64,000 nucleotides of DNA from Kiritimatiellia bacterium. Its GTDB lineage: Bacteria > Verrucomicrobiota > Kiritimatiellia > RFP12 > DVOR01. The notes below the pieces were generated by a model, which was not told the origin of the DNA, did not search any database, and worked only from the letters and a program-made list of their open reading frames with translations. This document shows positions 31,530 to 56,353 of the stretch, one piece after another (the first letter of the stretch is position 1; each line of letters begins with the position of its first letter). A program made the translations under genes and the position numbers. The stretch lies in contig JAVVWU010000001.1 in the NCBI GenBank assembly GCA_036651955.1, positions 24,932 to 88,931 on the forward strand, in the 5' to 3' direction.

Positions 31530-31687
31530 GGCTCATCGGCGAGGAGATGGGCAACGGCGAAAGAGAGTCTTATCGACTCCTCTATTAAAGTATTCGCTAC
31601 CCTCTTGTTGGAGTATGAAAAGTTTTGAAAATAGTGTTTGTGTCAAAGATTCAATTTTAGTATACTTTGTCTCGTTTTATGCTTTCT

Positions 31688-34856: not shown

Positions 34857-36147
34857 GCTCTATCATCGTATCGACAATATTTCCGGCTCCGTCGTGACGC
34901 TTCGTGCAACGGGCGTACGGAACAAAGAACTGGCAGAGATTGAATCGCGTACCGGGACGTCTCTCGCGCAGGTCATCAAGCTTGCCGGCGATGAAGTCAC
35001 ACTTCAAGTATTCGCCGGTGCGCGTGGCATTGCCGTCGATGCCGAAGTTAAATTCCTCGGACATCCGATGCAAGTCCCATTTGGTGACGAATTGCTCGGA
35101 CGCGTGTTTACCGGTTCGGCTCGTCCGCGTGACAATGGACCTGAACTTTCGATGAGCCCCACCGACATCGGCACGCCTTCGGTAAATCCTGCCAAACGTA
35201 TTATCCCGCGCCATATGGTGCGTACCGGTATCCCGATGATTGACGTTTTCAATACGTTGGTTGAAAGTCAAAAGCTCCCCATTTTCGCTCGCGCCGGTGA
35301 ACCTTACAATGACCTTTTGGCGCGAATCGCATTGCAGGCGGAAGTTGACATTATCATTTTGGGCGGGATGGGATTGAAGCACGATGATTATCTCGCCTTC
35401 CGTGATACGCTGGACGCTTCGGGCGCATTGTCACGCACCGTTATGTTTGTTCATACCGCCGCCGATCCGGTTGTGGAATGTATGCTCGTGCCTGATTTGT
35501 CGCTCGCCGTGGCAGAACAGTTCGCATTGAAGGGGAAACGCGTCTTGGTGTTGCTCACCGATATGACTTCGTTTGCCGATGCGATGAAGGAAATCGCCAT
35601 TACGATGGAGCAAATTCCTTCCAACCGCGGTTATCCCGGCGACCTCTATTCGCAATTGGCCTCTCGTTACGAAAAAGCCGTTGACTTTGAAGGTGCCGGT
35701 TCGATTACGATTCTCGCCGTCACCACGATGCCGGGCGATGACGTCACGCACCCTGTCCCTGATAACACCGGCTACATCACCGAAGGACAGTTCTACCTGC
35801 GCAATGGACGCATTGAACCTTTCGGCTCGCTTTCGCGTCTCAAACAGCAAGTCAACAAAGACACGCGCGCCGACCATCGCACCATTATGGACGCCATGAT
35901 TAAACTCTATGCGCAGTACAAAGATGCGGCAGAGAAGCAATCCATGGGCTTCCGTATGAGTGACTGGGATAAGAAACTGTTGAAATACGGGACGCTCTTT
36001 GAACAGAAGATGATGGATATTTCCGTCAATATTCCATTGGAACAAGCCTTGGACTTAGGATGGGAAATCCTTGCCGATTGCTTTGAGCCTATGGAGTCCG
36101 GTATCCCCACGCAAATGACCGATCAGTTTTGGCCCAAAAAGAGTTAA
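34849..36147 (+). CDS. atpB: V-type ATPase subunit B
   Basis: Start [15 protein letters not shown] at 34849 overlaps the atpA stop. B-subunit fold without a functional P-loop. Confidence 0.9.
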
Positions 36148-36153
36148 AACGTT

Positions 36154-36765
36154 ATGGCGAAAATCAAACACACCAAAACGGAAATGAAAGCGCAAAGTGA
36201 TGCGCTGAAGCGGTTCCAACGCTTTTTGCCGATGTTGCAATTAAAGAAGCAACAGTTGCAGGCGGAAATTGCCGGAATCTCGCTGAAACTCTCCGAAGTG
36301 CAAGCGCGCGAAGCGGTGGCACGGAAACGTTTGGAAACGTGGATTTCGCTCTATGCCGATGCCGATGTCGCACCGGAACGGTTGGTCTCATTTAACAAAG
36401 TTTTAACCGCTTCTGGAAATATCGCCGGCGTTGCCATTCCGCTCTATGAAGGTATTGATGCCGTTCCGACCGTGCTGGATCCTTTCCGTACGCCGGCGTG
36501 GACCGATGATGCGCAAACGATGTTGGCGGAATTGATGGCGCTTCGTGCCGAAGGCGATGTGTTACGTCGGCAACGGGAGTTGATTCAAGAAGAACTTCAT
36601 ACCACCGCGCAACGCGTCAACCTCTTTGAAAAGGTTAAAATCCCCGAGTGCAAAGAGAACATTCGCGTCATTCGTATCTTTATCGGTGACGAGCAAACTG
36701 CCGCCGTGGTGCGCGGAAAAATTGCCAAGGGACGTGCGCCCCAACAAGAGGAGGCGACCGCATGA
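36154..36765 (+). CDS. atpD: V-type ATPase subunit D
   Basis: 203 aa helical central-stalk protein, immediately after B. Confidence 0.8.
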   Translation: MAKIKHTKTEMKAQSDALKRFQRFLPMLQLKKQQLQAEIAGISLKLSEVQAREAVARKRLETWISLYADADVAPERLVSFNKVLTASGNIAGVAIPLYEGIDAVPTVLDPFRTPAWTDDAQTMLAELMALRAEGDVLRRQRELIQEELHTTAQRVNLFEKVKIPECKENIRVIRIFIGDEQTAAVVRGKIAKGRAPQQEEATA

Positions 36766-38615
36766 TTGTGCCAATGGAACAGCTCATTTTGCTCTGTGCG
36801 ACCGCAGATCGAGCCTCTGCACTGGAAGCTTTACGTGCATTAGGATGCGTCCACGTCCGGCTTGAATTGCGCGACAGCGAACCCATTCGTCGAGCCGCCA
36901 TGACGGTGGCTTCGGTGGAACAGTCCCTTCGCATTCTTTCAATCGCAGAAACCAACGGGCTTTTTGCGTTCAAGCCGGAAACGGATTCGCCCGTCGCAAC
37001 GATGACGGTCCCCGAACTGCTTGCCGCAGCGGAAGCGCTTCAATCGTTGGACTCCGTTATCGATGTCACGCGTGCCGCAGAATTGATTACGCGGCTTCGC
37101 GAAGAACATTTTACATTACGGCAAACGCTCCACCGCTATCACCCGTTTGGAAGTCTCACGCCGGCAACCATTCAAATGCTCAAGGCAAAAGGACTTCCGG
37201 TCACGCTTTTCAAACTTTCCGAAAAGTCTGCCGCAGCACTGGATGCAGCGACTCCGGAAGCGGTGCTGTGCGTTCACTTTGGTGTTGAAGCCGCCTTCCT
37301 TTATGGCGCATGGGTCGGCGTCGCGCCTTTGCCCGAAGGCTGTGAAGTCCTTCCGCTCCCCGCTCTTTCCACTGCGGAAATGACGGCAGATGCCGAACGC
37401 ACCGAAAGTGTTGCACACGCACTCCTCCATCGGCTGGCGAATGCCGTCGAAACATTGCGTCCGCAATTCGTTCGCCTCCTCGCACAAAAGAGTGAGAGTA
37501 AAGCGTTCGCGGAAGTCTCCGAAAATCTTCGCACCGAAGGTTCGGTCGCATATCTCTTGGGATATGTACCGCAAAGAGCACAAGCAGAACTTTTGGCAAA
37601 AGCGTCCGCGAACGGTTGGGGGCTTGCACTCAATCCGCCCGAACCGGATGATCCGCATGTCCCCGTTATGCTCGAACCGCCACGCGGATTTCGTGCCATT
37701 ACGACACTGTTCAAAGGATTGGGAATTTTACCGGGCTATGCGGAAAGTGATATCAGCGTTCCGTTCTATGTCTTTTTCTCGCTCTTCTTTGCGATGCTCA
37801 TTGGTGATGCCGGATATGGCGCACTCATGCTTCTAGGCGTCGGTGCGGCAGCGTGGAAACTTCATGCCAAGAAAGCCGCACGCCCCGTGCTGCTGATCTT
37901 CTCGGTCTTTTGCCTTGCAACGATTCTGTGGGGCGTTCTCTCCGGAACATATTTTGGCATCAACCATCAACAGCTCCCTGCCTGTCTCACGGCATTGCCA
38001 ACGGTCGATTGGCTCGGCAATCAGGACAATATTATGTTCCTGTGCTTTGCCATTGGAGCCGTTCATCTCTGTCTGGCGCGATTGTGGAACGCGATTTGTC
38101 TCGCCCCGAATACTAAAGCATTGGCAGAACTCGGATGGATGGGCGTCACGATTTCAATGTTTCTAATTGTCGCAGGCATTGTCGTGAGTTGGTTTACGCA
38201 ACCGACATGGACGTGGTGGCTCCTCGGTGGAAGTGTCGCACTGATTGCACTCTTTATGCTCAAGCCGTGCGAACTCAAAACGCAAGGTGTCTCTCTGGGA
38301 ATGCTTCCGCTCAACGTCATCAGCTCCATGGGCGATGTCATCAGTTACGTGCGTCTTTTTGCCGTGGGGCTGGCTTCGGTAAAAGTCGCAGAAAACTTCA
38401 ACACCATGGCGTTCCAGCTTGAAATGCCGATGGTCTTTCGCATTCTCTGTATCTGTCTCATTCTGCTTTTGGGACACGGGCTGAACTTAGCAATGGGCGC
38501 ACTTTCAATTCTTGTACATGCCGTGCGTCTCAATACACTCGAATTTTCAGGCGCGAAGGGAATTACGTGGTGCGGCGTGCCCTACGTTCCCTTCCGTTCA
38601 ACTTCTCAACAGTAA
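36762..38615 (+). CDS. atpI: V-type ATPase subunit I (a-subunit)
   Basis: 617 aa with a cytoplasmic N-terminal half and a C-terminal half of about 7-8 TM helices. Overlaps the atpD stop. Confidence 0.85.
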   Translation: MIVPMEQLILLCATADRASALEALRALGCVHVRLELRDSEPIRRAAMTVASVEQSLRILSIAETNGLFAFKPETDSPVATMTVPELLAAAEALQSLDSVIDVTRAAELITRLREEHFTLRQTLHRYHPFGSLTPATIQMLKAKGLPVTLFKLSEKSAAALDAATPEAVLCVHFGVEAAFLYGAWVGVAPLPEGCEVLPLPALSTAEMTADAERTESVAHALLHRLANAVETLRPQFVRLLAQKSESKAFAEVSENLRTEGSVAYLLGYVPQRAQAELLAKASANGWGLALNPPEPDDPHVPVMLEPPRGFRAITTLFKGLGILPGYAESDISVPFYVFFSLFFAMLIGDAGYGALMLLGVGAAAWKLHAKKAARPVLLIFSVFCLATILWGVLSGTYFGINHQQLPACLTALPTVDWLGNQDNIMFLCFAIGAVHLCLARLWNAICLAPNTKALAELGWMGVTISMFLIVAGIVVSWFTQPTWTWWLLGGSVALIALFMLKPCELKTQGVSLGMLPLNVISSMGDVISYVRLFAVGLASVKVAENFNTMAFQLEMPMVFRILCICLILLLGHGLNLAMGALSILVHAVRLNTLEFSGAKGITWCGVPYVPFRSTSQQ

Positions 38616-38628
38616 AGGAAAACATCAC

Positions 38629-39111
38629 ATGGATATGAACATTGCTCTGGGCGTTGCTGGTGCCGTAACCTGTCTCGCTCTTTCCGCCGTTGGCTCGGCA
38701 TTTGGAACTGGATTTGCAGCGGCAGGTGCCGTAGGCGCATGGAAGAAATGCTATGCACAAAACCGCCCTGCGCCTTTCCTTTTGCTCGCTTACGTCGGCG
38801 CGCCGATTACACAAACGCTCTACGGTATGATTCTTATGTTTACGATGATTGGCACCGCGACTGCCAAGGCAGGAATCTTGCCGGGCGCAGGATTGGCAAT
38901 GTTAATCCTCGGAGCCTTTGCCGGCATTGCCATTGGAATGTCCGCACTCTTTCAGGGACGTGCCGCAGGATGTGCCGCCGATGCACAGGGCGAAACCGGT
39001 CAAGGCTTCACCAACAACCTTGCCGCGCTCGGTATCATTGAAACCGTCGCCATCTTCGTCATGGTCTTTACGCTCATTGCCGTAGGTAAGCTGGTCGTTG
39101 TCGCCGCCTAA
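38629..39111 (+). CDS. atpK: V-type ATPase proteolipid subunit K (c-ring)
   Basis: 160 aa, four TM helices, Gly/Ala-rich hairpins duplicated in tandem. Confidence 0.85.
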   Translation: MDMNIALGVAGAVTCLALSAVGSAFGTGFAAAGAVGAWKKCYAQNRPAPFLLLAYVGAPITQTLYGMILMFTMIGTATAKAGILPGAGLAMLILGAFAGIAIGMSALFQGRAAGCAADAQGETGQGFTNNLAALGIIETVAIFVMVFTLIAVGKLVVVAA

Positions 39112-39271: not shown

Positions 39272-41266
39272 GTGATGAAAACGTTTCTCTGTTCTTTTAT
39301 GATTGCCGCCTGCCTCTTGTTGGGGCTCGTAACCACAACCGTTCATGCTGCCGCCACGCCGCCCGCCGGCACGGCACAAGCCGCCCCCATCATCGCGAAA
39401 AAAGGCGAAGCACAGTGGCATGGATATCAACGTATCAACTTTACTTTTGACGGAAGATCCGCTTGGGTGACCGTTCCTAAAGCTGTTGCCCCCGGCGCTC
39501 CGTGGATGTGGCGCGCGCGTTGGCCCGGATATCACGATGAAATTGACGTCAAGCTTTTGGAAGCAGGCTATCACACCGTTTATGTTGACACGCCCGATAT
39601 GTATGGTTCTCCGCGTGCCATGGCGGTTTGGGATCGTTTCTACCAGTATCTCATCTCGACGTATCATTTTTCCGCCAAGACCGTACTCTATGGATGCAGT
39701 CGCGGAGGCTTTTTCATTTACAACTTCGCCAACCGTTGGCCTGAACGCGTGGCAGTCATCTATGGCGATACTCCGACCATGGATTTCAAATCGTGGCCGC
39801 AAGGAAAAGACGGTATGAGCGTCGGCTCTGCTGGCGACTGGAAACAGTTAATAGCGCAATACGGATTTGCCTCCGAAGCCGAAGCAGATGCGAGTACGGA
39901 CATCCCGCTCAACTATGCCGAGCGCATTGCCGCCCACCATATTCCCATTTGGCACACCATCGGTCCCGAAGACCGCGTCGTTCCCCCCAAATATAATTCC
40001 GAACCGTTCGCTGCGCGTTATCGTGCCGCCGGCGGAGAAATTACGTTGCATTACAACAAAGGTCCCTATCAATTACAAGGACACCATTTCCCCTTGGATG
40101 CGGTGAATGAATCGGTACAATTCATCATTCAAAACACGCCGCTTCCAGACCTCCCTGCCTCCCTTATGGCGACGTGGTCGAAGAATGCCGTGAACCTTCG
40201 CCCCGCATTGGAACGTATCCTTGCCAAAAAGCAAGCGCGTGTAATTTTCCTCGGCGGTTCCATTACCTACAACCCCGGTTGGCAAAATATGACGATGGAC
40301 AGCCTCCGTCGCCGTTTCCCACAAGTGCAATTTGAGTTTCGCAATATCGGCGTGCCTTCCCTCGGCTCCTTAAGCCACGTTTTCCGTTGGCGCGAACATT
40401 TTGCCGGTCCTGCGGATCTCGTCTTTTTCGAGTCCGTCGTCAACGACCTTCACAACAGCCAAACGCCCGAAGAAATTGAACGTGCATATGAAGGCGTTTT
40501 ACGCGGGATTCAAATCGAAAATCCGAACGTTGGATTGATTTGCCTCCACTTTGCTGAACCACGTTACACCGCCGCTTATGCCCAAGGTCAACTGCACCCG
40601 ATTGTCGCGACCCATACACGGATTGCCTCCCACTATGCGTTGCCACAGCTCAACCTCGCCAAAGAAGTTGCCGACCGTTTAGCCGCCAAGCAATTCGACT
40701 GGGAACGTGACTTCCGCGATTTGCACCCCTCTCCTTTCGGTCAACGGTTGTACTACTCCGCCATTTCTAAACTGTTCAATGAAGCACTCGCTGCCGCGCA
40801 GCAGTCCGTTGCCACTGTCAAACTTCCTGCTGCCATACGCAAAGATGCGTGGACTTACGGAAACTTTATTCCCGGAGCCAAAGCCTACAACTTAAACCGC
40901 GCGAAACCAGTAAGCGCGTGGAAGCCACTTCGCCCGATGGAAACACGTGCGATGTTCGTCAATTGCCCGATGCTCGTCGCGGAAGGTGAAGGAGCCTCCT
41001 TCTCGATGGACTTCACAGGGTCGATTATGGGCGTTTACATTGTTGCCAGTCCCGAATCCGCCGTTCTTGAATATTCCGTAGATGGGGCAAAATGGAACTC
41101 CGTGGATACCTTTACCCGATGGAGCAGTTATATCTGTATGCCGTGGCCCTTCATCTTGGAAAAGAATTTGTCGGAAGGTAAACACACCGTACAGTTCCGC
41201 GTAAAAGCCAATGGTAAGCGTAACCTTGTCAACTTCTACGCCCTCTGCGTCGCCCCAATCAAATAG
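39272..41266 (+). CDS. secreted multidomain carbohydrate esterase (alpha/beta-hydrolase domain plus SGNH-hydrolase domain plus C-terminal beta-rich domain)
   Basis: Signal peptide. YGCSRGG nucleophile elbow (GxSxG) in the N-terminal domain. VIFLGGSITYNPGW SGNH block I in the middle domain. 664 aa. Confidence 0.7.
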   Translation: MMKTFLCSFMIAACLLLGLVTTTVHAAATPPAGTAQAAPIIAKKGEAQWHGYQRINFTFDGRSAWVTVPKAVAPGAPWMWRARWPGYHDEIDVKLLEAGYHTVYVDTPDMYGSPRAMAVWDRFYQYLISTYHFSAKTVLYGCSRGGFFIYNFANRWPERVAVIYGDTPTMDFKSWPQGKDGMSVGSAGDWKQLIAQYGFASEAEADASTDIPLNYAERIAAHHIPIWHTIGPEDRVVPPKYNSEPFAARYRAAGGEITLHYNKGPYQLQGHHFPLDAVNESVQFIIQNTPLPDLPASLMATWSKNAVNLRPALERILAKKQARVIFLGGSITYNPGWQNMTMDSLRRRFPQVQFEFRNIGVPSLGSLSHVFRWREHFAGPADLVFFESVVNDLHNSQTPEEIERAYEGVLRGIQIENPNVGLICLHFAEPRYTAAYAQGQLHPIVATHTRIASHYALPQLNLAKEVADRLAAKQFDWERDFRDLHPSPFGQRLYYSAISKLFNEALAAAQQSVATVKLPAAIRKDAWTYGNFIPGAKAYNLNRAKPVSAWKPLRPMETRAMFVNCPMLVAEGEGASFSMDFTGSIMGVYIVASPESAVLEYSVDGAKWNSVDTFTRWSSYICMPWPFILEKNLSEGKHTVQFRVKANGKRNLVNFYALCVAPIK

Positions 41267-41290
41267 CGCATACACTCAACAGGTGAAAAC

Positions 41291-41338
41291 AAGTGTAGCG
41301 TTGCACTTCTGACGAGGTACAACGCTACACTTATTTGG
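41291..41338 (+). terminator. putative terminator after the esterase gene
   Basis: aagtgtagcgttg ... caacgctacactt: a 13-bp stem with a 16-nt loop followed by a T-rich run (atttggg). Confidence 0.45.
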
Positions 41339-41771
41339 GAATATCTCAAAAGCAAATTCACAGTCCAAACAGATTACGACTCCCTCTAAAACGATAGTAC
41401 TTCTACTCGCTAAGACGTTATCGAATACTGTACTTTCTAATTTTCACTGTCAGCTCCAAAATTCATAAAGACATTCGCTTGAGCAGTCAGTCTACATAAA
41501 TGTATTTGATATCGCCCATTGACGTAGTCGTTATACGATTCTGATATGAACCGTATGCGTTATAAACCTCATGAAAAAGGTAGAGGAGGCGTATCGTCAT
41601 TACGTTTATTATTAAGAATCTAATTGCTAATGAACCTAAACATGCCTTTAACTTGACGTAGCATTAAAATTTGTGCTACTTTCAATATCAGAAAGAGTGT
41701 GGATTTGGTTTGACACTGAAGTATCACACTGTCATTTATTCGGATGATTAAAGGGTATAGGGACATCTGCA

Positions 41772-42671
41772 ATGAAAACTTGGATTACTTTTTTACTGTT
41801 GATAGGGTTCGTTTATTGTGCACAAGCGAATAACGAAGTGGAGATAATTCCAACATATGATTCTACTGCGATTCAAATAAAGAATATTACGCGCGTAGAT
41901 GATGAGAATGAATATTCAGCACTTCCGGCGTTGACGAAACAAGAAAGAATACAAAACGAGGAAAGTGGACAATCAATTGATTTGAGTTACACATCAAAAT
42001 ACGGTTATATACCAATTCAACAGGACGGTAGTTCCAGGAAAAGAGACTATCGCAATTTATGGAAAAGAGTTGCTGTCACCGGATGGCATCATTTTGATGT
42101 TGTTTACGAAGTTACGGGAGAAACAATAGATAGACGTCCTTCCGTTAATAAAATTCCCGAGATAACGATTACCTATGCGCTATTATATGATATGAGTAAA
42201 TCTAAATTATTAACTCAACTTTTAATGAATGCCGCAAAAGCGGATTGTAAGGTTGATTGGTATTTGGAAGATATTAAAAATCCTCACTATTACGTGATGG
42301 TGACACGAACGATTACTTATCAAAACATTGCTCATGGGCAAGAACATCGTGCGAGAGTGTGCGTTCCCCCATCATTTATTGTGGCGTATGGTCTGCCAGT
42401 GTGTTTTTCCGCTGAACTTAAAATGAATGGTAAACGTCAAGGGGAAGTGATGACACAAATGTGTTCTGGAGTAAAGATTGAGGAGCATAAGCTTTCGTCG
42501 CTTCTTGTTGAGAAAAATGCAAAAGGGGAATCCACTCCGTCAGCATGGTGGAAAAGTATCCGAACAATTTCTTCCACCGTCGGGGAGCGATTGGATGTTT
42601 TGCAGGATCGTAGTATGACACCCTTTTATATGTTCAATGATTTTGACTATAATCAAGTGAAACAGGATTGA
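41772..42671 (+). CDS. secreted hypothetical protein encoded in a strongly AT-rich islet
   Basis: Signal peptide MKTWITFLLLIGFVYCAQA, 299 aa, no recognisable domain. Codon usage is very different from neighbours. Preceded by about 500 bp of AT-rich noncoding DNA. Confidence 0.6.
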   Translation: MKTWITFLLLIGFVYCAQANNEVEIIPTYDSTAIQIKNITRVDDENEYSALPALTKQERIQNEESGQSIDLSYTSKYGYIPIQQDGSSRKRDYRNLWKRVAVTGWHHFDVVYEVTGETIDRRPSVNKIPEITITYALLYDMSKSKLLTQLLMNAAKADCKVDWYLEDIKNPHYYVMVTRTITYQNIAHGQEHRARVCVPPSFIVAYGLPVCFSAELKMNGKRQGEVMTQMCSGVKIEEHKLSSLLVEKNAKGESTPSAWWKSIRTISSTVGERLDVLQDRSMTPFYMFNDFDYNQVKQD

Positions 42672-42795
42672 GTCCGCTTCGTAGGAAATCTTCCTTCTTT
42701 TTGTAGAAAATTAGTAAGTCAATCTCCCTCGCGATGCGCACGGTGGCGATGGATTCATTGCGGGAGAGTGTTGCATTTGGTATGATATTTTTGCA

Positions 42796-43641
42796 ATGCG
42801 CGTGCTCTATGTATTTATTGATGGTGTGGGATACGCACTGGCGGGGGAGTCCAATCCTGTCCGTCCAGAGGTCTGTCCAACGTTGTACCGTTTGATGCAA
42901 AATGCAGCAGTCAAATTGGACACACGTTTAGGCGTATCAGGATTACCGCAGTCGGCAACGGGGCAAGCGACATTGTACACCGGCGTGAACGCTTCACAGG
43001 TTATGGGACGACACAAAGAAGGGTTCCCCGGACCCACCTTGTGCCGATTGCTTCAAGAGGACAATCTCTTTTTGGAATTACAACGGCGAGGCAAGAAGGT
43101 GTGTTTTGCCGATGCTTATTTTGCAGATACTGCGGAGGAGCTTTCTGCTCGGCGCTTTAAGTCAGTCACAACGATTATGTCGCTGACAGCGCCTACGACG
43201 ATTCGCTATCAACGGGATATGTTGGCAGGACGTGCAGTGCTTCACGATTTAACTCGTCAAGCGATTGTCCCCAAAGGCTACATAGGCCCTACGATTACGC
43301 CCGAAGATGCTGCCGATCAGTTGCTCGCCATTGCTGCGGAAAACGATTTTACGCTGTTCGAGTATTTCTTAACGGATATCGCAGGGCATTCGCAGAACAA
43401 AGAACAGGCAGAAGGCGTATTGCATTCGTTAGACACTTTTCTTACGCGCGTTGTCGAACGGCGTGACGAAGAGACACTGCTGTTAATCACCTCTGACCAC
43501 GGGAATATTGAGGATTTAAGTACGCGCGGACATACGTTTAACCCCGTGCCTTTAATTGTGTTGGGGCCTCACGCAGAAGAAATTCAACGTGGAGCCGAGT
43601 CTTTAATTGATGTTATGCCGCGTTTGCTACGGGCAATGTAA
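42796..43641 (+). CDS. alkaline-phosphatase-superfamily metalloenzyme (ApgM/phosphopentomutase-like)
   Basis: N-terminal LYVFIDGVGYA and C-terminal ITSDHGNIEDL...NPVPLIVLGP motifs typical of cofactor-independent mutase-like metalloenzymes. Shorter (281 aa) than canonical ApgM. Confidence 0.55.
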   Translation: MRVLYVFIDGVGYALAGESNPVRPEVCPTLYRLMQNAAVKLDTRLGVSGLPQSATGQATLYTGVNASQVMGRHKEGFPGPTLCRLLQEDNLFLELQRRGKKVCFADAYFADTAEELSARRFKSVTTIMSLTAPTTIRYQRDMLAGRAVLHDLTRQAIVPKGYIGPTITPEDAADQLLAIAAENDFTLFEYFLTDIAGHSQNKEQAEGVLHSLDTFLTRVVERRDEETLLLITSDHGNIEDLSTRGHTFNPVPLIVLGPHAEEIQRGAESLIDVMPRLLRAM

Positions 43642-43652
43642 AGAGGACGACT

Positions 43653-44651
43653 ATGATGAAACACTTCTTACTTGCGTTGACCGCCCTTGCCGCTCTTCCT
43701 CTCTTCGCACAAACATTAACTGTTAATCAAAAGGTAACCACTCCGATTAAGGACGCGGCAATACTGACGGTCACCGGTACGCCGACGATTTCTACTTCTA
43801 ATATGACCGCCTTAGAGGCGGAGATTACCTTCACGCTTCCGACGATTGACCCGCTTTACAGTGAAACAGTCACGACCGCAGACAAACTGGTAATTTGCCC
43901 TAACGCCGCAGGGACACAGCTACTCATCAGTAATGCCGTGGCAGGAAACGCAGGATGGTTCAGCTATACATTGCCGACGCCACTCTCTGCGACCTCTCCG
44001 ACTTCTCTTTCCATTCGTGCAATCGCCTTTCTTGATGCTTCTGTATTGAAGTATGACGTCTATGTAAAGAATGGATCGACTTACGAAAAAGCAGCGAAGG
44101 GCATTACTTCTCCAAGTTCAAATGCAACGCTTGCCTCTGTCGCCTTTGAAGGTGCAGGCTCTGCGACCAACATTTTATTGGCGCAAATGCCTGTTAGCAG
44201 TGGCGAAACTCCTCCTTCTCCTGAACAGGTTTCAAAATATGCCGAATGGTCGCAAGATTCAGGAAAAGGTGGCGCACTTCCTGCGGACGCAACGGATACC
44301 GATAAACAAAATGCGTTTGCCATGAATGTGGGCGGAACACCACACCTTTCCGTTACAGCAATTGATGCACAAAGCGGAACTATTACACTTAAAGGATCGT
44401 ATATACCAGCGACAGCGGGCGGAGTCGAAACAACCGCTGATCTCGATAACATCAATGGCGTACTGACGATTTCATCTTATACGACACTCGGTGCAACGCC
44501 CACGATTCACAAAGTTAACGTCGTTGCCCAAGCGGACAAAACGGTGATTATCCCGTTCCCTGTTGCTAACGCTCCCTTTGTGAAAGCCACACTGAGTGTT
44601 GCCGCCCAGACGACAGGGGCAGACGTTGACGCAAAACCAAAAGCTCCGTAA
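43653..44651 (+). CDS. secreted Thr/Ser/Ala-rich surface protein (adhesin-like), hypothetical
   Basis: Signal peptide MMKHFLLALTALAALPLFAQ, 332 aa, low complexity rich in T, S and A. Confidence 0.6.
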   Translation: MMKHFLLALTALAALPLFAQTLTVNQKVTTPIKDAAILTVTGTPTISTSNMTALEAEITFTLPTIDPLYSETVTTADKLVICPNAAGTQLLISNAVAGNAGWFSYTLPTPLSATSPTSLSIRAIAFLDASVLKYDVYVKNGSTYEKAAKGITSPSSNATLASVAFEGAGSATNILLAQMPVSSGETPPSPEQVSKYAEWSQDSGKGGALPADATDTDKQNAFAMNVGGTPHLSVTAIDAQSGTITLKGSYIPATAGGVETTADLDNINGVLTISSYTTLGATPTIHKVNVVAQADKTVIIPFPVANAPFVKATLSVAAQTTGADVDAKPKAP

Positions 44652-44699
44652 CGTTTAGCACTCCACTTTTAATTCCCTAAAGCAAGGACAAAGACTCCC

Positions 44700-45731
44700 A
44701 TGGACAAGAAGCATTCCGCATATACCGCCGCTGGCGTTGATATTGACAAGAAGATGAAAGGTATCGAAACCATTAAGCAAATGGTTAAAAAGACCGTAAC
44801 CCCCGGTGTGGTTGGAGGAATTGGCAGCTTCGGCGGTCTTTTCCAAAGCCCGGGCGCAGACACGCTCATTGTCGCGTCTGCCGATGGCGTGGGAACCAAG
44901 CTGAAAGTCGCCGCAATGGTCGGACGGCACGATACGGTAGGACAAGACATTGTGAACCATTGCGTCAATGATATTTTGGTGCAAGGGGCAACGCCTCTCT
45001 TCTTTATGGATTATATCGGCGCTTCCGTTTTTGATGCAGAAATCTTCAATGCGGTGATTTCAGGTTTGTGCAAAGCCTGTGCCGAAAATGGTTGCGCGCT
45101 TCTCGGTGGTGAGACCGCTGAAATGCCGGGGCTTTATCCGATCGGCGAATATGACCTTGTCGGAACGATTATTGGTCAGGTGAAGAAAGATAAAGTTATC
45201 ACAGGCGATGCGATTCAAGTCGGTGATGTGTTGATCGGACTGCCCTCGGGCGGACTTCAAACCAACGGTTTTTCGTTGGCACGTAAAGTCATCTTTGAAC
45301 AGGAAGGCAAAAAGCCCGAAGATCTTGTTCCGGGAACGCAAGTCACGTTTGCAGACGCACTCTTGGCGGTTCATAAGAGTTTTCTCAAGCCCATTACACA
45401 AGTAATGAATGCCGGCGTGAACATTCACGGTATGGCGCATATCACCGGTGGCGGATTCTACGACAATATTCCGCGTGTCCTTCCGAAGAATGTCGATGTT
45501 ACGATTGACTCCGCAAGTTGGGAAGTTCCTCAAATCTTCCAGTTCATTCAAGAAAAAGGGAATGTCGACAGGGAAGAAATGTACCGCGTATTTAATATGG
45601 GTATCGGATTCATCCTTGCCGTTGACTCCGCCGCCGTTGGAACGACGTTGAAAGCGTTAGAAGCGGCAGGCGAACAGCCGATCATCATCGGTGGCGTGAA
45701 CCCCGGCAACAAGACCGTTCATGTGATTTAA
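44700..45731 (+). CDS. purM: phosphoribosylformylglycinamidine cyclo-ligase (AIR synthetase)
   Basis: AYTAAGVDIDKKMKG...GIGSFGGLF PurM N-terminal motifs, 343 aa. Confidence 0.9.
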   Translation: MDKKHSAYTAAGVDIDKKMKGIETIKQMVKKTVTPGVVGGIGSFGGLFQSPGADTLIVASADGVGTKLKVAAMVGRHDTVGQDIVNHCVNDILVQGATPLFFMDYIGASVFDAEIFNAVISGLCKACAENGCALLGGETAEMPGLYPIGEYDLVGTIIGQVKKDKVITGDAIQVGDVLIGLPSGGLQTNGFSLARKVIFEQEGKKPEDLVPGTQVTFADALLAVHKSFLKPITQVMNAGVNIHGMAHITGGGFYDNIPRVLPKNVDVTIDSASWEVPQIFQFIQEKGNVDREEMYRVFNMGIGFILAVDSAAVGTTLKALEAAGEQPIIIGGVNPGNKTVHVI

Positions 45732-45750
45732 GAATCGTCGGTCATAATAA

Positions 45751-45783
45751 AAGGGAAGCTCCTCACGGAGCTTCCCTTTTATT
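45751..45783. terminator. bidirectional Rho-independent terminator
   Basis: aagggaagctcc tcac ggagcttccctt flanked by A-run and T-run, between convergent purM and the U32 peptidase gene. Confidence 0.7.
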
Positions 45784-45798
45784 ATGGCGAATGCTCAA

Positions 45799-48183
45799 TT
45801 AGAATCGGTACTCTTTAAATCGATCCGTAAAGAGTGGCGCCGCCATAAGGACATCGCGCCAATTCGCAAAGAAGAGATCCGCCCCCGCCCACGACAAATC
45901 CACGCGTTGACGTACATAGCCCAAAGAGAGCAATTCGCGCGTATGGTTCTGTGCCGACCACGGACGTTCAGAATAAGTAACCCACAAACGTCCTAAACGC
46001 GTGACACATAAACGGTGACCATTTCGATCGGTCAACCGTGGCGGCGCCTCTTCGCCAACGAGAGGGCGCGTGAACGCAATAAAGAGCGGTGCAATTTGTG
46101 CCACGAGAATTTCGCGTGGTAAATCATCAGGCAAGGACAGTACATTCGGAAGATTGGACTCGGGTCCTGTCACTGCACCACGAATACCGAGCGCCGCTTG
46201 CACCTGAGCCGCCTCCGGATTCGTGGCATACCATGTCCAATCCGCCCAAATATCAAAGGCATCACAGAACGGTTGGAGATCCATAAGAAACTGCCAAGAC
46301 GTGAGATCGGCGACCTCAAATCGGCGGAAGCCTTTATCCACCAAGCTCCCTATCATTCCGGCGAGCGCAGTCAAATCGGCATCACGCAACGCTGGTGGCA
46401 GCGCAATCCGCAACTTTTCGCGTGGCACAGTTTCAATCCACGGCGTGAGCTGCCGCAAGGTGGTTTCACTCGTCAAAGCAACGATCACGTCTTCGGGCAT
46501 TTCATGCCCCAGCACCTTTGTCGCCTGTAAGACGGAGACTTTCACACTATAACGTGGCTCTGTTGCCACTGGGGCACTCGCCGCATCCGTTTTCACCGTA
46601 CGTTTCCGCTCGGGAATAATCAAGATTTCAGCGCGACGATTTTTAGCTTCCGCCGCAAGACGTTCACGCGTCCGCGCCGCCCACTCGCGGCGTGTCGCAT
46701 TGAGAATCGACGCCGGCAGGAAAAGTCCTTGAGGGTCTTGGAAGTCCAGCGAACGCAAGAAGAATCCTTCATCTCCCAATCGCGCGAGCAGACGTTCTGC
46801 GGCTTCACGTGAACACTCGGGCTTCTTGGCGGCATCTAATGTCGCAGGTGCCGACACCTCTGTTCCGCAGCCACGCAACGTAAGCGCGGTAGGAGTCAGT
46901 GTCAGCGTCAAGTCCGCCGGATGCAAAATTCGCGTATCCGTCGAACGCGGTGTCGGCACAGGGAACGAACGGCGAACGGCTTGTGAAGCGGAGCAGTACA
47001 CAATAGCACCGCGCGGGATTTCCTCTTCGATCTCCTCCGGCAAAGCGACTTCAACACGAATCCCCGCCGGAAGTGTAATGGCAAGACGACGCGTTTTCGC
47101 ATCGCAGAAACGATCCACCGCAAACCCGACAGGGCGACCGCCGGTGGGCAAATCAATTTGAATACCATCGTGTTTTTCAAGTGCGCGCACGGTTTCAAAG
47201 GAGAGCCAACGCGATCCTTCATGATCGGTAAGCACTTCACGAACTTTACCAATCGGCGCACCACGATGTCCAATGCAAAGGGAATCAATAATCGTTTCGG
47301 GCGTGGCGGAACCGTTCTTAGAGTAGAGCGGAGTCCACGGACGCGAAAAAATGGTTTGAAGATCGGCAGTCTTTTTGGCAATCCCTTCAGGAGAGAGAAC
47401 GCCATTCAGTAAATCACTATAAAGATCGGTGACCGCCGCAACGTAAAGCGGGTTCTTCATACGCCCCTCAATTTTAAGAGAGGCTAAAGGCAACGTTCGT
47501 AGTTCCTCGGCAGTTTCGACGCTTGCCAAGTCGCGCATTGAAAACGGATGGTTTTGTGTTCCATTCACATCGCAAAAACTTTGACGGCAGCAGTAGGCAC
47601 AGCGTCCGCGGTTACCACTCCGCCCCGCCGTCAGAGATGAGTAGAGACAAAGTCCGCTCACGCTATAACAAAGCGCACCATGGATAAAGACTTCGATTTC
47701 AACACCGGCTTTTTGTCCAATCTCGGCAGCCTCGCGCAAGGTCAATTCACGCGCCGTCACAATGCGCACAAAGCCCAATGCCTTCAACGCGCGTGCGCCT
47801 GCCACAGACGTACACGACAATTGCGTACTGGCATGAAGCGGAATCGTCGGGAAATGTTTATGAATGATTGAGGCAAGTCCTAAGTCCTGCACAATGACAC
47901 CGTCAATCGCAAGGTCTTCCAATGTCACTAACAGTGGCAAAAGGTCCGCACGTTCACGCGTTTCAATCAACGTATTGAGCGTTACATAAACCTTGCGTGG
48001 ACGTTCAAACGTTCGCGCATAAGCAATCAAGCGCGTGAGTTCATCCATCGTAAAATTGGCGGCATCGGCACGCGCAGAAAAACGTTTCAGTCCGAGGTAG
48101 ACCGCGTCGGCACCGTAAGCAAACGCTGCGACAGCCGCTTCAAAAGATCCGGCAGGCGCTAACAATTCAGGTAAGGAGTTCAT
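45799..48183 (-). CDS. U32-family peptidase, long form (collagenase-like; RlhA/TrhP-type putative RNA-modification enzyme family)
   Basis: N-terminal ELLAPAG signature, the FIHGALCYSVSGLC...SGNRGRCAYCCRQS Cys-rich block and a long C-terminal extension. 794 aa. Confidence 0.85.
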   Translation of the reverse strand: MNSLPELLAPAGSFEAAVAAFAYGADAVYLGLKRFSARADAANFTMDELTRLIAYARTFERPRKVYVTLNTLIETRERADLLPLLVTLEDLAIDGVIVQDLGLASIIHKHFPTIPLHASTQLSCTSVAGARALKALGFVRIVTARELTLREAAEIGQKAGVEIEVFIHGALCYSVSGLCLYSSLTAGRSGNRGRCAYCCRQSFCDVNGTQNHPFSMRDLASVETAEELRTLPLASLKIEGRMKNPLYVAAVTDLYSDLLNGVLSPEGIAKKTADLQTIFSRPWTPLYSKNGSATPETIIDSLCIGHRGAPIGKVREVLTDHEGSRWLSFETVRALEKHDGIQIDLPTGGRPVGFAVDRFCDAKTRRLAITLPAGIRVEVALPEEIEEEIPRGAIVYCSASQAVRRSFPVPTPRSTDTRILHPADLTLTLTPTALTLRGCGTEVSAPATLDAAKKPECSREAAERLLARLGDEGFFLRSLDFQDPQGLFLPASILNATRREWAARTRERLAAEAKNRRAEILIIPERKRTVKTDAASAPVATEPRYSVKVSVLQATKVLGHEMPEDVIVALTSETTLRQLTPWIETVPREKLRIALPPALRDADLTALAGMIGSLVDKGFRRFEVADLTSWQFLMDLQPFCDAFDIWADWTWYATNPEAAQVQAALGIRGAVTGPESNLPNVLSLPDDLPREILVAQIAPLFIAFTRPLVGEEAPPRLTDRNGHRLCVTRLGRLWVTYSERPWSAQNHTRELLSLGYVRQRVDLSWAGADLFFANWRDVLMAAPLFTDRFKEYRF

Positions 48184-48938
48184 TAAAAAACCACCGTAGT
48201 ATCAAAGGAATCAAACGAAGCCTCAATGCGGTCTTTCTCCGCATCAGGCAGTGGGCAACCGGCGAGAAACAGGACTTTCAATGTCCGCCACGGACGAAGA
48301 TCGTCCGGCAGCTTCTCGATTTTCGTATTGCGTAAATCAAGCAATTCAAGCCCCGTACCGAGATCGTCCGGCACCGCGGTAAGAGGATTTCCAGAAAGCG
48401 TAAGATGCCGTAATGCGGACGGCTTCAGCGGCGTTGCCGTGAGCTGATTGTCGGCAAGATAAAGCCGTTCAATCGTTGCTGGGAGCGGTGGCAGAATGGT
48501 GAGATGATTGCCATTGAGACGGAGAAAACGCAACGGCATTTGCGACATATCGGGAAGCGAAGTCAAAAGATTGCGGTCAAGATTCAAATACGTTAACGGC
48601 ACGGCGCTGAACGTTGCCGGCAAGTTCGTCAAACGATTATCCGCCAGCCACAACCGTTCAACTGTGGGAGGAACAAGATCACGTGGCAGTGCCGGCAAGT
48701 CATTCCCCGAAAGATTCAAATCACGCACCGAAGAGGGCACACGTAATTGATAGACACGCTCGGCACCGACCGTACGCAGATGTAATTCACGCAGGTTGGA
48801 ATCAGCAGAAAGACGAGGAATTGCATTCGTTCCTTCTACCATAACAATCGTCGAACGATCACACTCGGGCGCCTCCTGCGGTTCATAACAGCCGCATAAA
48901 CTCATCAGCATTCCGCCGAGGATCGCGTACTTCATCAT
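48183..48938 (-). CDS. leucine-rich-repeat lipoprotein
   Basis: MMKYAILGGMLMSLCGC lipobox, then about 8 LRR units (LxxLxLxxNxLTxLP). Confidence 0.75.
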   Translation of the reverse strand: MMKYAILGGMLMSLCGCYEPQEAPECDRSTIVMVEGTNAIPRLSADSNLRELHLRTVGAERVYQLRVPSSVRDLNLSGNDLPALPRDLVPPTVERLWLADNRLTNLPATFSAVPLTYLNLDRNLLTSLPDMSQMPLRFLRLNGNHLTILPPLPATIERLYLADNQLTATPLKPSALRHLTLSGNPLTAVPDDLGTGLELLDLRNTKIEKLPDDLRPWRTLKVLFLAGCPLPDAEKDRIEASFDSFDTTVVF

Positions 48939-50071: not shown

Positions 50072-50156
50072 AGTATACAGTATATCAAACGCTTCGACAT
50101 CATAGCTTCCGCTCCATCACAAAAGGCGGAGTTCCTCAGCGACATTAACGGAGCGG

Positions 50157-52318: not shown

Positions 52319-52333
52319 AGAAGTTTCAGTATA

Positions 52334-53813: not shown

Positions 53814-53819
53814 AAGCCC

Positions 53820-56183: not shown

Positions 56184-56353
56184 GTCATATTCCCTTTAAT
56201 GGGGATAGTATAGCGCGGTTTTCCACCTTCCGCAATGCGTCACGTGCGCGATCGCCACGCCACGACCGTCGCCCGCTCGACGCCGAATGCCGATTTGCCA
56301 CAAAAGTAGCCGCGCCGTCGCGTACCCGTCCGACTGTGCCGAAACTCTCCACT

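What the first reader, a model, noticed from the sequence alone, without database searches (positions are those of the whole stretch)
41267..42795. Strongly AT-rich islet carrying a secreted hypothetical protein behind about 500 bp of AT-rich noncoding DNA
The GC content drops sharply by eye relative to the flanks. The ORF (41772-42671) has a signal peptide, no recognisable domain and different codon usage. The 5' noncoding stretch (41340-41770) is long for this compact genome and AT-rich.

It is flanked by two other secreted or unknown proteins (42796-44651). The pattern is typical of horizontally acquired effector, toxin or adhesin cargo, or of a xenogeneic-silenced locus. The 500-bp leader could hold a regulatory RNA or multiple promoters.
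Basis: seen in the sequence. Interest (0 to 1): 0.55.

Follow-up and report, generated by a model that had tools for sequence, protein, structure and literature searches.

The report
Strain-variable extra pilus-like subunit gene
The AT-rich patch is a 1.44-kb piece of DNA, present in only some strains of one Kiritimatiellia species, that carries a second, highly diverged copy of the Amuc_1102/MUL2A pilus-like surface protein; it is a modest but clean case of strain-level gain of a surface-structure gene, not a toxin or effector island.

Summary
Window 41280-42719 is the lowest-GC stretch of the 64 kb (0.386 against 0.510; gene GC3 0.33, z = -4.5).

The 299-aa ORF is not domain-less. It is a divergent member of the Amuc_1102/MUL2A pilus-like family. 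Its only significant PDB fold match is 7DSZ, and it matches the family member P0002 at E = 9e-68.

In about 40 related loci the homologue is always the first gene of the operon MUL2A-PilM-Amuc_1100-Amuc_1099-secretin. Here it stands alone, between a GDSL-type hydrolase gene and a conserved metalloenzyme-unknown-purM trio.

The same genomes also carry the normal operon, with a 44%-identical copy, so this is a second, unlinked copy.

A conspecific strain about 99% identical in the flanks has 51 bp where the window has 1,440 bp. Among eight conspecific MAGs, three carry the islet, three are empty and two are undetermined. Two outgroup species lack it. Carriers show no SNP across it.

No integrase, tRNA, terminal repeat, phage or plasmid relative was found, and the leader holds no detectable RNA element.

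Best reading: a recently gained, recombination-spread cassette encoding an alternative subunit for the resident pilus-like machine. The gain is shown; the function is inferred. It is a new member of a known kind and of moderate interest.

The parts
41280..42719 (.). The islet proper: 1,440 bp present in the window. A conspecific empty-site strain has an unrelated 51-bp spacer here (L042:1573-1623).
   Evidence: blastn of L042 against the window gives L042:1-1572 = 39708-41279 (99.1%) and L042:1624-14638 = 42720-55731 (99.2%). The junctions were read. GC is 0.386 for the slightly larger span 41267-42795 that was measured. There is no SNP between the two carrier assemblies across it.
41291..41332 (+). 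Strong terminator-like hairpin at the left edge of the islet: a 13-bp perfect stem plus 5 further pairs, followed by UUAUUU. It starts 25 nt after the stop codon of the GDSL-type gene and probably insulates the cassette from read-through.
   Evidence: Inverted repeat I1. Fold of 41262-41350: -31.9 kcal/mol, z = -5.9, 0 of 200 shuffles as good. Its role as a terminator is inferred.
41333..41771 (+). AT-rich non-coding leader. It has no credible ORF, no Rfam match, no excess RNA structure and no similarity to anything else fetched.
   Evidence: ORF list; Rfam; fold z = -0.57; blastn and tblastx against all loci found nothing; the canonical-leader model R1 gave no hit.
41653..41682 (+). Best candidate promoter of the cassette: TTGACG, an 18-nt spacer ending in TGc, then TACTTT. 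The -10 element ends 90 nt upstream of the ATG.
   Evidence: Own hexamer scan. The tool's sigma-70 scan did not list it. This is inferred only, with no expression data.
41772..42671 (+). CDS of 299 aa: a divergent, unlinked second copy of the Amuc_1102/MUL2A family pilus-like protein. It is identical to NCBI MEG1787640.1 and MEG1933165.1 (RR133_01080).
   Evidence: E = 9e-68 to P0002, 44% identity; accessions; AF2 model, Foldseek 7DSZ E = 1.5e-6, prob 1.00; NF042424 is the only NCBIfam hit, sub-threshold.
41772..41828 (+). Predicted Sec-type signal peptide (residues 1-19, cleavage after A-Q-A). It is not a type IV prepilin (class III) signal.
   Evidence: Read from the sequence. The family consensus is MKxWM...A-x-A|Q. 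No signal-peptide predictor was available.
41931..42011 (+). 27-residue insertion (residues 54-80, LTKQERIQNEESGQSIDLSYTSKYGYI) that is unique to this copy. It lies in the variable N-terminal region that is modelled with low confidence.
   Evidence: Alignment A1, columns 71-99. pLDDT is below 50 for residues 67-103.
42672..42719 (+). 3' tail of the islet, with a weak AT-rich hairpin (AGGAA-AUC-UUCCU) followed by a T-run. It is a possible weak terminator.
   Evidence: Sequence. The fold is not better than shuffles (z = 0.08), so this is weak.
39272..41266 (+). Left flank (context, not cargo): a secreted 664-aa protein with a GDSL-like lipase/acylhydrolase domain. In the empty-site strain it is followed after 32 bp by the annotated 317-aa metalloenzyme ORF.
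   Evidence: Pfam PF13472; gene table of L042.
42796..45731 (+). Right flank (context, not cargo): a conserved core trio of metalloenzyme (281 aa), secreted unknown protein (332 aa) and purM.
   Evidence: Pfam. The trio is conserved in outgroup species L047 and L048 without any Amuc_1102-like gene. The metalloenzyme family is typically 280-281 aa long.

Best explanation
Window 41280-42719 is a 1.44-kb single-gene cassette that a sublineage of this Kiritimatiellia species gained recently. It sits in the short spacer between a GDSL-type hydrolase gene and the metalloenzyme-unknown-purM core trio, where it replaced 51 bp.

Shown by comparison:
- The cassette carries a strong hairpin at its left edge, about 440 bp of AT-rich leader, and one intact gene for a secreted 299-aa protein.
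- That protein is a fast-evolved extra copy of the Amuc_1102/MUL2A family, the first gene of the MUL2 type IV pilus-like locus of PVC bacteria.
- It groups with the host species' own canonical MUL2A rather than with those of other species. Its composition (GC3 0.33 against 0.51) shows that it equilibrated somewhere other than this chromosome.
- It has no mobility genes. Carriers share an identical tract that runs into both flanks, which suggests it moves between strains by homologous recombination in the flanks.

Inferred:
- The protein is exported by Sec.
- It uses the resident PilM-Amuc_1100-Amuc_1099-secretin machinery, encoded elsewhere in the same genome, as an alternative or additional surface subunit.
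- This would give carrier strains a variant surface structure, with different adhesion or glycan-binding specificity, or different antigenic or phage-receptor properties.
- It would be transcribed from its own promoter in the leader.
For: Composition.

Family:
- All 16 word-index hits carry PF28178 (Amuc_1102).
- The only significant PDB fold match is 7DSZ (Amuc_1102): E = 1.5e-6, prob 1.00, target-normalised TM 0.58-0.60; the next hit has E = 0.058.
- NCBIfam's only hit is NF042424, 'Amuc_1102 family pilus-like protein'.
- 54 of 76 positions that are invariant in 15 canonical members are retained, against about 40% identity overall.

Context:
- In every other locus with downstream DNA (L001-L007, L010-L040, L050-L052) the homologue is directly followed by PilM, Amuc_1100, Amuc_1099 and secretin.
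- In every locus where it was computed, the homologue's GC matches its host locus.
- The window has none of those partner genes.

Second copy in the same genome:
- P0001 is MEG1787640.1 and MEG1933165.1.
- The canonical P0002/P0151 is MEG1787957.1 and MEG1933760.1 (RR133_04150). It is followed by PilM (...958/...761), Amuc_1100 (...959/...762) and Amuc_1099 (...960/...763).
- Assembly GCA_036648375.1 holds both L003 (canonical operon) and L044 (right end of the islet).

Gain and polymorphism:
- Empty site in L042, with flanks 99.1-99.2% identical.
- The empty-site N-terminus RLIVRSLSLHN, encoded by the 51-bp spacer, is also present in two further MAGs.
- Outgroups L047 and L048 lack the islet.
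- Independent Logan contigs L008 and L009 reproduce the junctions.
- There is no SNP over 40496-42902 between carriers, against about 4.8 per kb elsewhere. 6.8 were expected in the islet, so P(0) is about 0.001.

Origin:
- In the NJ tree the copy is sister to the host's canonical copy in 159 of 200 bootstraps, at 49.6% identity against at most 40.6% to all others, on a long branch.
- No closer relative exists among 1.84 billion cluster representatives; the next best is 42%.

Function of the family: Amuc_1102 is MUL2A and is structurally like an archaeal type IV pilin; MUL2B is PilM (PMC13174399). The proteins of the Amuc_1098-1102 cluster are abundant in the outer-membrane fraction (PMC5332112).
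Against: - There is no expression, localisation or interaction evidence. The functional step is inference from family and context.
- The copy lost 22 of the 76 positions that are invariant in canonical members. It also lacks the conserved promoter and leader of the canonical genes, so it could be regulated differently or poorly expressed.
- Its own promoter candidate is weak and was not picked up by the standard scan.
- Formal family thresholds are not reached: NF042424 scores 16.6 bits against a cut-off of 55, and the precomputed PF28178 hit is only 'faint' for this protein.
- The AF2 model is of moderate quality only (mean pLDDT 63; core 75-88).
- The donor and the insertion mechanism are unknown. 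There is no target-site duplication, terminal repeat, integrase or tRNA.
- The sister relationship to the host copy rests on an NJ tree with 80% bootstrap support and a long branch.
Confidence: 0.6

Rival explanations
1. Decaying relic. The cassette is a functionless leftover of a transferred or duplicated MUL2A gene, drifting towards AT and on its way to loss. The presence/absence polymorphism would then simply reflect neutral loss or gain.
For: The copy sits on the longest branch of the family and has lost 22 of 76 otherwise invariant positions. It lacks the canonical promoter and leader and has no partner genes nearby. Half of the resolved strains do without it.
Against: The ORF is intact over 299 codons in an AT-rich sequence, where stop codons arise easily. 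Invariant positions are kept far more often than average positions (71% against about 40%). The fold is still recognisable as 7DSZ, and the signal peptide is intact. An in-place relic would drift towards the host's composition rather than sit at GC3 0.33. The zero diversity among carriers argues for a recent arrival.
Confidence: 0.15
2. Stand-alone secreted adhesin or other extracellular protein. It would use only the Amuc_1102 fold and work independently of the MUL2 PilM/secretin machinery.
For: The gene is unlinked from the operon, has its own leader and carries a unique 27-residue insertion. It has a Sec-type rather than a prepilin-type signal (sequence).
Against: The canonical members have the same Sec-type signal and are nevertheless always operon-linked, in about 40 loci. 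The conserved core that is retained is the part shared with operon-linked members.
Confidence: 0.13
3. Mobile-element cargo, of the phage 'moron' or plasmid-gene type. A captured pilus-subunit mimic would block or modify the host pilus-like structure, for instance for superinfection exclusion, and was later stranded in the chromosome.
For: It is an AT-rich, single-gene, self-contained unit with a hairpin at one end, as morons are (own knowledge). It descends from the host clade yet has a foreign composition and a fast-evolving sequence. It is strain-variable.
Against: No relative was found in 50,697 phage records, 72,556 plasmids, 2.9 million IMG/VR contigs, PHROGs or BFVD structures. No prophage, integrase or other mobile gene lies within the 64 kb around it. 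The neighbours on both sides are core genes.
Confidence: 0.1
4. Assembly or binning artefact: a chimeric contig joining foreign AT-rich DNA to a Kiritimatiellia contig.
For: The source is a metagenome-assembled genome. Several sister assemblies break their contigs at or near the junction (L043 starts at 42727, L044 at 42675, L045 at 42775).
Against: Both junctions are reproduced in two NCBI MAGs (the window and L041). Both junctions are also spanned by Logan contig L008, and the right junction by Logan contig L009. The cargo is phylogenetically closest to the host's own gene. The contig breaks are what a presence/absence bubble in the assembly graph would give.
Confidence: 0.02

Closest known systems
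Amuc_1102 (MUL2A) of Akkermansia muciniphila: PDB 7DSZ, Pfam PF28178, NCBIfam NF042424
   Same: The fold is the same: 7DSZ is the only significant PDB match, with E = 1.5e-6 and prob 1.00. Both are secreted proteins of about 200-300 aa. The family is the first gene of the locus Amuc_1102-PilM(Amuc_1101)-Amuc_1100-Amuc_1099-secretin(Amuc_1098), which is also found in Kiritimatiellia (PMC13174399, PMC5332112).
   Different: Sequence identity is only 16% over the structural alignment, and curated sequence thresholds are not reached. This copy is unlinked from the operon, AT-rich, strain-variable and carries a 27-residue insertion.
The canonical MUL2A homologue of the same species (P0002/P0151, e.g. 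RR133_04150), first gene of its MUL2-like operon (loci L001-L003)
   Same: It is the closest relative of the window protein: 44% identity over the full length and 49.6% on gap-poor columns, and sister in the NJ tree. The two share the signal-peptide type and many derived motifs (YQNI, GLPVCFSAE, SLLVEK...SAWW). Both are present in the same genomes.
   Different: The canonical copy has host-like GC (0.51; GC3 0.55), the conserved TTGACG-N17-TATACT promoter and leader, and its operon partners. It is identical or nearly identical in carrier and non-carrier strains alike. The islet copy has none of these features.
Unlinked or alternative pilin genes and variable pilin alleles of type IV pili, e.g. 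Pseudomonas aeruginosa pilA allele groups and Neisseria pilE/pilS (own knowledge, not tested here)
   Same: The logic is the same: a subunit gene lies apart from the assembly machinery, varies between strains, moves horizontally and changes the exposed surface of a conserved machine.
   Different: Those are true type IV pilins with a class III signal peptide processed by PilD. This family has a Sec-type signal, and its role as the fibre subunit is not established. No silent-cassette recombination system is seen here.
Prophage 'morons' and small genomic islets (own knowledge)
   Same: It is a single AT-rich gene inserted between two unrelated genes, with a terminator-like hairpin and its own upstream region, and it is present in only some strains.
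   Different: It is not in a prophage. It has no mobility gene, tRNA or flanking repeat, and no phage or plasmid relative was found.

Membership tests
Amuc_1102 / MUL2A pilus-like protein family (PF28178, NF042424) | Sequence match to the family model at the curated threshold | tested here: not met
   NF042424 is the only NCBIfam hit, but it scores 16.6 bits (E = 0.0047) against a cut-off of 55; P0002 scores 22.8 bits. The precomputed PF28178 hit is 'faint' for this protein and unmarked (E <= 1e-5) for P0002. Homology to PF28178 members is nevertheless strong (E = 9e-68 to P0002). The protein is therefore a distant relative, not a member by the curated cut-off.
Amuc_1102 / MUL2A pilus-like protein family (PF28178, NF042424) | Fold of the Amuc_1102 crystal structure (7DSZ) | tested here: met
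   Foldseek of the AF2 model matches 7DSZ chains C, A and B at E = 1.5e-6 to 4.8e-6, prob 1.00, target-normalised TM 0.58-0.60. The next hit has E = 0.058. Caveat: mean pLDDT is 63 (core 75-88).
Amuc_1102 / MUL2A pilus-like protein family (PF28178, NF042424) | Position as first gene of the MUL2 locus, directly upstream of PilM (MUL2B), Amuc_1100, Amuc_1099 and secretin | tested here: not met
   tblastn finds no PilM, Amuc_1100, Amuc_1099 or secretin in the 64-kb window. All other loci examined have them. The feature is met by the other copy in the same genome.
Amuc_1102 / MUL2A pilus-like protein family (PF28178, NF042424) | Envelope localisation and a role in the pilus-like structure or in mucin/particle attachment | not testable with these tools
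   This is known only for Akkermansia (PMC5332112, PMC13174399). There are no data for Kiritimatiellia.
Horizontally acquired genomic islet | Composition and codon usage outside the host's range | tested here: met
   GC 0.386 against 0.510. Gene GC z = -4.7 and GC3 z = -4.5. Codon usage z = -5.5. It is the lowest-GC stretch of the window. Homologues in other genomes match their hosts' GC.
Horizontally acquired genomic islet | Presence/absence between close relatives, with an intact empty site | tested here: met
   L042 has 51 bp in place of 1,440 bp between flanks that are 99.1-99.2% identical. The count is 3 carriers, 3 empty and 2 undetermined. It is absent in two outgroup species.
Horizontally acquired genomic islet | Mobility signatures: integrase or transposase, tRNA target, direct or inverted terminal repeats | tested here: not met
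   No tRNA lies nearby. There is no terminal repeat or target-site duplication, only 3-4 bp of CAA microhomology at the junctions. The islet holds no other ORF.
Horizontally acquired genomic islet | An identifiable donor | tested here: not met
   The nearest protein is the host's own paralogue at 44%. The protein is a singleton among 1.84 billion cluster representatives. No phage, plasmid, viral-contig or JGI match was found.
Type IV pilin (class III signal peptide) | Prepilin leader ending in G, followed by F/M-T-L-x-E and a hydrophobic N-terminal helix | tested here: not met
   The N-terminus is MKTWITFLLLIGFVYCAQA|NNE and the family consensus is A-x-A|Q. There is no G|FTLxE motif.
cis-regulatory RNA or riboswitch in the 5' leader | A match to a known RNA family, or structure beyond the composition-matched expectation | tested here: not met
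   Rfam gathering and E <= 1 searches found nothing in the leader. The fold gives z = -0.57. The model of the canonical MUL2A leader gives no hit.

The most novel reading that the evidence does not exclude
MUL2A may be the exchangeable, exposed subunit of the PVC MUL2 pilus-like apparatus. Strains of one species would then swap or add divergent MUL2A variants as free-standing cassettes, by recombination in core flanks, to change what the structure binds or which phages and antibodies recognise it. This would be a subunit-variation system for a machine whose fibre subunit and function are still unsettled. The islet would give a natural pair of carrier and non-carrier strains, close to isogenic at this locus (flanks about 99% identical), in which to test that.
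Probability: 0.25. Interest if true: 0.55.

Novelty: new member of a known kind. Interest (0 to 1): 0.35.

Why it matters
The MUL2 locus (Amuc_1098-1102) is prominent in Akkermansia biology. It is tied to growth on mucin, to attachment and to the immunoactive protein Amuc_1100, yet what MUL2A does in the structure is still uncertain.

Three points follow from this case:
- The same locus is universal in a clade of gut Kiritimatiellia.
- One species carries a strain-variable, fast-evolved extra MUL2A outside the operon.
- That marks MUL2A as the component under diversifying or strain-specific selection, and it offers natural carrier and non-carrier strains for comparison.

For genome annotation, it turns a 'hypothetical protein in an AT-rich island' into a named family member. 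It also corrects the over-extended start of the neighbouring metalloenzyme gene.

The case is not a new kind of system.

Tried and rejected
Searches that found nothing:
- The local Pfam copy gave no hit for the ORF, because the family is newer than the copy.
- A PDB sequence-profile search did not reach 7DSZ. Only the fold search did.
- The leader as RNA: nothing in Rfam at gathering or at E <= 1; MFE z = -0.57.
- The leader as a relic of a gene or of the canonical upstream region: blastn and tblastx against all loci found nothing. A sequence model of the conserved canonical promoter and leader (A4/R1) did not hit it. MAFFT's apparent alignment of the proximal TTGACA region is therefore not accepted as homology.
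- Mobile-element origin: tblastn against phages and plasmids, PHROGs, IMG/VR contigs, BFVD structures and a 45-mer in JGI metagenomes were all negative.
- Terminal repeats or a target-site duplication: none beyond chance matches.

Hypotheses rejected:
- Low GC as a family trait. The homologue's GC tracks its host locus in the 30 other loci where it was computed.
- Deletion in the empty-site strain rather than gain. This is disfavoured because the 51-bp spacer is not a subset of the islet, the outgroups lack the islet, and carriers show no diversity.
- Truncation of the metalloenzyme gene by the insertion. The family length is 280-281 aa, so the 317-aa form is an over-called start.

Dead ends and technical notes:
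- Trying to find the source genome's own operon through PilM hit names and contig look-ups led nowhere. The exact-sequence cluster look-up solved it.
- A first raw per-codon likelihood did not flag the gene. After correction for amino-acid composition it did.
- The first tree script timed out.
Full report
**1. The observation**

The GC dip is real. 300-bp windows fall to 0.35-0.38 over 41400-42450, while the flanks sit near 0.52. At 1-kb resolution, 41001-43000 holds the two lowest values of the whole window.

It contains the minimum at every window size tried, about 4 SD below the mean.

The ORF 41772-42671 (+, 299 aa) exists. Among 43 long ORFs it has the lowest GC (0.384, z = -4.7) and the lowest GC3 (0.33 against 0.511 +/- 0.049, z = -4.5). 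Its synonymous codon usage, corrected for amino-acid composition, is the second most atypical (z = -5.5). The only stronger outlier is a doubtful ORF at 169-1122.

The 505-bp upstream gap is the fifth longest of 48 gaps, whose median is 15.5 bp.

**2. What the gene is**

The local Pfam copy found nothing. The large protein database returned 16 homologues, all carrying the recent Pfam family PF28178, and the query is identical to 'hypothetical protein RR133_01080 [Kiritimatiellia bacterium]'. The contig look-ups name PF28178 as Amuc_1102.

Amuc_1102 is MUL2A. It is the first gene of the Akkermansia type IV pilus-like locus Amuc_1102-Amuc_1101(PilM, MUL2B)-Amuc_1100-Amuc_1099-Amuc_1098(secretin). 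Its crystal structure is 7DSZ, described as similar to an archaeal type IV pilin (PMC13174399; PMC10688800; PMC5332112).

An AlphaFold2 model built on the 16-sequence alignment has mean pLDDT 63, with 75-88 over the core at residues 106-280. Its only significant PDB match is 7DSZ: E = 1.5e-6, prob 1.00, target-normalised TM 0.58-0.60. The next hit has E = 0.058.

NCBIfam's only hit is NF042424, 'Amuc_1102 family pilus-like protein'. It is far below the cut-off (16.6 bits against 55), as is the canonical Kiritimatiellia copy (22.8 bits). The protein is therefore a distant but real relative of Amuc_1102.

Its N-terminus is a Sec-type signal (A-Q-A|N), as in the whole family (A-x-A|Q). It is not a prepilin signal.

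**3. What is unusual about its context**

In every related locus with downstream sequence, the homologue is directly followed by PilM, Amuc_1100, Amuc_1099 and a secretin. These loci are L001-L007, L010-L040 and L050-L052, from many Kiritimatiellia/'Spyradenecus' gut MAGs whose GC ranges from 0.48 to 0.70. In each locus where it was computed, the homologue's GC and GC3 match its host locus. Low GC is therefore not a family trait.

The window contains none of the partner genes. The gene sits alone between a secreted protein with a GDSL-type hydrolase domain (39272-41266) and a Metalloenzyme-superfamily protein (42796-43641). These are followed by a secreted 332-aa unknown protein and purM.

**4. 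A second copy in the same genome**

Exact-sequence look-ups give the following:
- The islet protein is NCBI MEG1787640.1 and MEG1933165.1 (RR133_01080).
- The canonical homologue (P0002/P0151, 44% identical) is MEG1787957.1 and MEG1933760.1 (RR133_04150), in the same two assemblies.
- The canonical copy is immediately followed by PilM (...958/...761), the Amuc_1100-family protein (...959/...762) and the Amuc_1099-family protein (...960/...763).

Assembly GCA_036648375.1 likewise holds both the canonical operon (L003) and the right end of the islet (L044).

**5. A strain-variable gain**

Fetching contigs through the identical purM protein gave a conspecific assembly (GCA_036659595.1, locus L042) that also holds a canonical operon (L001). 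In L042 the annotated 317-aa metalloenzyme ORF starts 32 bp after the GDSL-type gene.

The alignment is L042:1-1572 = window 39708-41279 (99.1%) and L042:1624-14638 = window 42720-55731 (99.2%). So 51 bp in L042 stand where the window has 1,440 bp.

The 51-bp spacer encodes the N-terminus RLIVRSLSLHN of an over-extended 317-aa annotation of the metalloenzyme. That N-terminus is also found in two further MAGs (RSB74, RR982).

Among eight conspecific MAGs:
- Three carry the islet: RR268 (the window), RR133 and RSD41.
- Three have the empty site: RSB14, RSB74 and RR982.
- Two break their contig at or near the junction, as a presence/absence bubble in an assembly graph would give.

Two outgroup species, whose metalloenzyme is 80-82% identical, keep the metalloenzyme-unknown-purM trio but have other genes upstream and no Amuc_1102-like gene.

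Independent Logan assemblies confirm the layout. L008 spans both junctions and L009 spans the right one, which excludes a chimeric contig.

Between the two carrier assemblies there is no difference over 40496-42902, while the surrounding 21 kb differ at about 4.8 sites per kb. 6.8 differences were expected in the islet, so P(0) is about 0.001. The non-carrier differs from the carriers at seven sites in the last 760 bp of the left flank. The islet is therefore linked to a short flanking haplotype. This is the pattern expected if it spreads among strains by homologous recombination in the flanks.

**6. Anatomy of the cassette**

- It has no tRNA, integrase, transposase, terminal repeat or target-site duplication. 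Only a 3-4 bp CAA microhomology marks the junctions.
- At the left edge, starting 25 nt after the stop codon of the GDSL-type gene, is a strong hairpin at 41291-41332. The fold of 41262-41350 gives -31.9 kcal/mol, z = -5.9.
- About 440 bp of AT-rich leader follows. It has no ORF of note, no Rfam match, no excess structure (z = -0.57) and no similarity to any fetched locus.
- The canonical homologues share a strikingly conserved upstream unit: TTGACG-N17-TATACT, then AGTSAA..TGGT, a hairpin and an AAGGAG Shine-Dalgarno sequence. A model of that unit does not match the islet leader. The best candidate promoter of the cassette's own is TTGACG(41653)-18 nt with TG-TACTTT(41682). This is inferred only.
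- The 48-bp tail has at best a weak terminator.

**7. Origin**

The protein is the most derived member of the family.
- It keeps 54 of the 76 positions that are invariant in the 15 canonical members.
- It has a unique 27-residue insertion (residues 54-80).
- It is depleted in G/A/R/P (18% against 22-31%).
- In an NJ tree it is sister to the host species' own canonical copy in 159 of 200 bootstraps, at 49.6% identity against at most 40.6% to any other member, on a branch about three times longer.
- An exhaustive HMMER scan of 1.84 billion cluster representatives finds nothing closer than 42%.
- No relative was found in phage, plasmid or viral-contig collections, in PHROGs or in BFVD.

The simplest reading is this. 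The gene descends from the MUL2A of this host clade. It evolved for a long time in a lower-GC setting, either an unsampled relative or an unsampled mobile element. It then re-entered this species recently.

**8. Mechanism proposed**

Shown: a recently gained, self-contained, single-gene cassette that encodes an intact, secreted, divergent MUL2A-family protein, in genomes that also have a complete MUL2-like operon.

Inferred (about 0.4 for this step): the protein is exported by Sec and is handled by the resident PilM/Amuc_1100/Amuc_1099/secretin machine as an alternative or additional subunit. This would change the adhesive, antigenic or phage-receptor properties of the surface structure in carrier strains.

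Rivals: a decaying relic (0.15), a stand-alone secreted adhesin (0.13), mobile-element cargo acting as a pilus decoy (0.10) and an assembly artefact (0.02).

**9. Comparison with what is known, and verdict**

The gene works like, and is a distant relative of, Amuc_1102/MUL2A. It fails the curated sequence cut-offs and the defining operon linkage, so it is best called an unlinked divergent paralogue rather than an orthologous MUL2A. As an islet it has atypical composition and a clean empty site, but no mobility signature.

It is a new member of a known kind. Interest is moderate (0.35). Its main value is as a natural handle on which MUL2 component varies between strains.

Noticed in passing
L001:5583-5682, L004:7904-8003, L011-L035 (alignment A4); not in the window: The canonical MUL2A genes of Kiritimatiellia share a highly conserved upstream unit. 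This holds across genomes with GC from 0.48 to 0.70. The unit is TTGACG-N17-TATACT (the -10 hexamer is invariant in 20 of 20), then AGTSAA(N)TGGT, a variable GC-rich hairpin whose sequence differs between species while a stem remains, and an AAGGAG Shine-Dalgarno sequence. It may be a conserved 5' leader or regulatory element of the MUL2 operon. RNAalifold found no consensus pairs, probably because the hairpin region is misaligned.
   Followed up: partly
window 43653-44651: The 332-aa secreted protein of unknown function between the metalloenzyme gene and purM is a hotspot of differences between conspecific strains. It shows about 19 SNPs per kb, plus indels that give products of 332-335 aa. 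Yet a gene of this size (314-329 aa, no Pfam hit) sits at the same position in the outgroup species L047 and L048. It could be a fast-evolving surface protein.
   Followed up: partly
window 42720-42795 and L042:1592-1699: In empty-site strains the metalloenzyme is annotated as 317 aa, starting inside the 51-bp spacer. The family is otherwise 280-281 aa long, so the 317-aa start is probably over-extended and the ATG at 42796 is the true start.
   Followed up: yes
L043 (starts at window 42727), L044 (42675), L045 (42775): Several independent assemblies of conspecific strains end their contigs within about 55 bp of the right junction of the islet. This is what a filled/empty polymorphism within one sample would do to an assembly graph.
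   Followed up: partly
window 17089-18702; 2419-4380; 60639-62752: Other moderately low-GC genes (0.43-0.47) are envelope or glycan related: a DUF6056 membrane protein, a GT4-family transferase and two tandem 352-aa GT8 glycosyltransferase paralogues. They are the next-lowest GC patches of the window after the islet.
   Followed up: no
window 169-1122 (+): This ORF has by far the most atypical codon usage of the window (z = -9.3) and overlaps a 306-aa ORF on the other strand (914-1834). It is probably not a real gene in this frame.
   Followed up: no
window 31632-31675 (+) and 56198-56237 (-): The model of the MUL2A promoter and leader picks up weak matches with an exact TATACT. One lies just upstream of tRNA-Tyr. 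The other lies in the 684-bp gap just upstream of the 787-aa Ser/Thr kinase gene (53820-56183, minus strand). This suggests that TTGnnG-N17-TATACT is the general housekeeping promoter form in this organism.
   Followed up: no
L019 (CAVDHG010000075.1): A contig deposited under 'Agathobacter rectalis' carries a complete Kiritimatiellia-type MUL2 operon, with PilM 71% identical to that of L001. This is probably contamination of that bin.
   Followed up: no
window 33108-39111: A V-type ATPase operon (A, B, D, I and K/c subunits) lies directly upstream of the GDSL-type gene. It is core context and is identical in arrangement in carrier locus L041.
   Followed up: no
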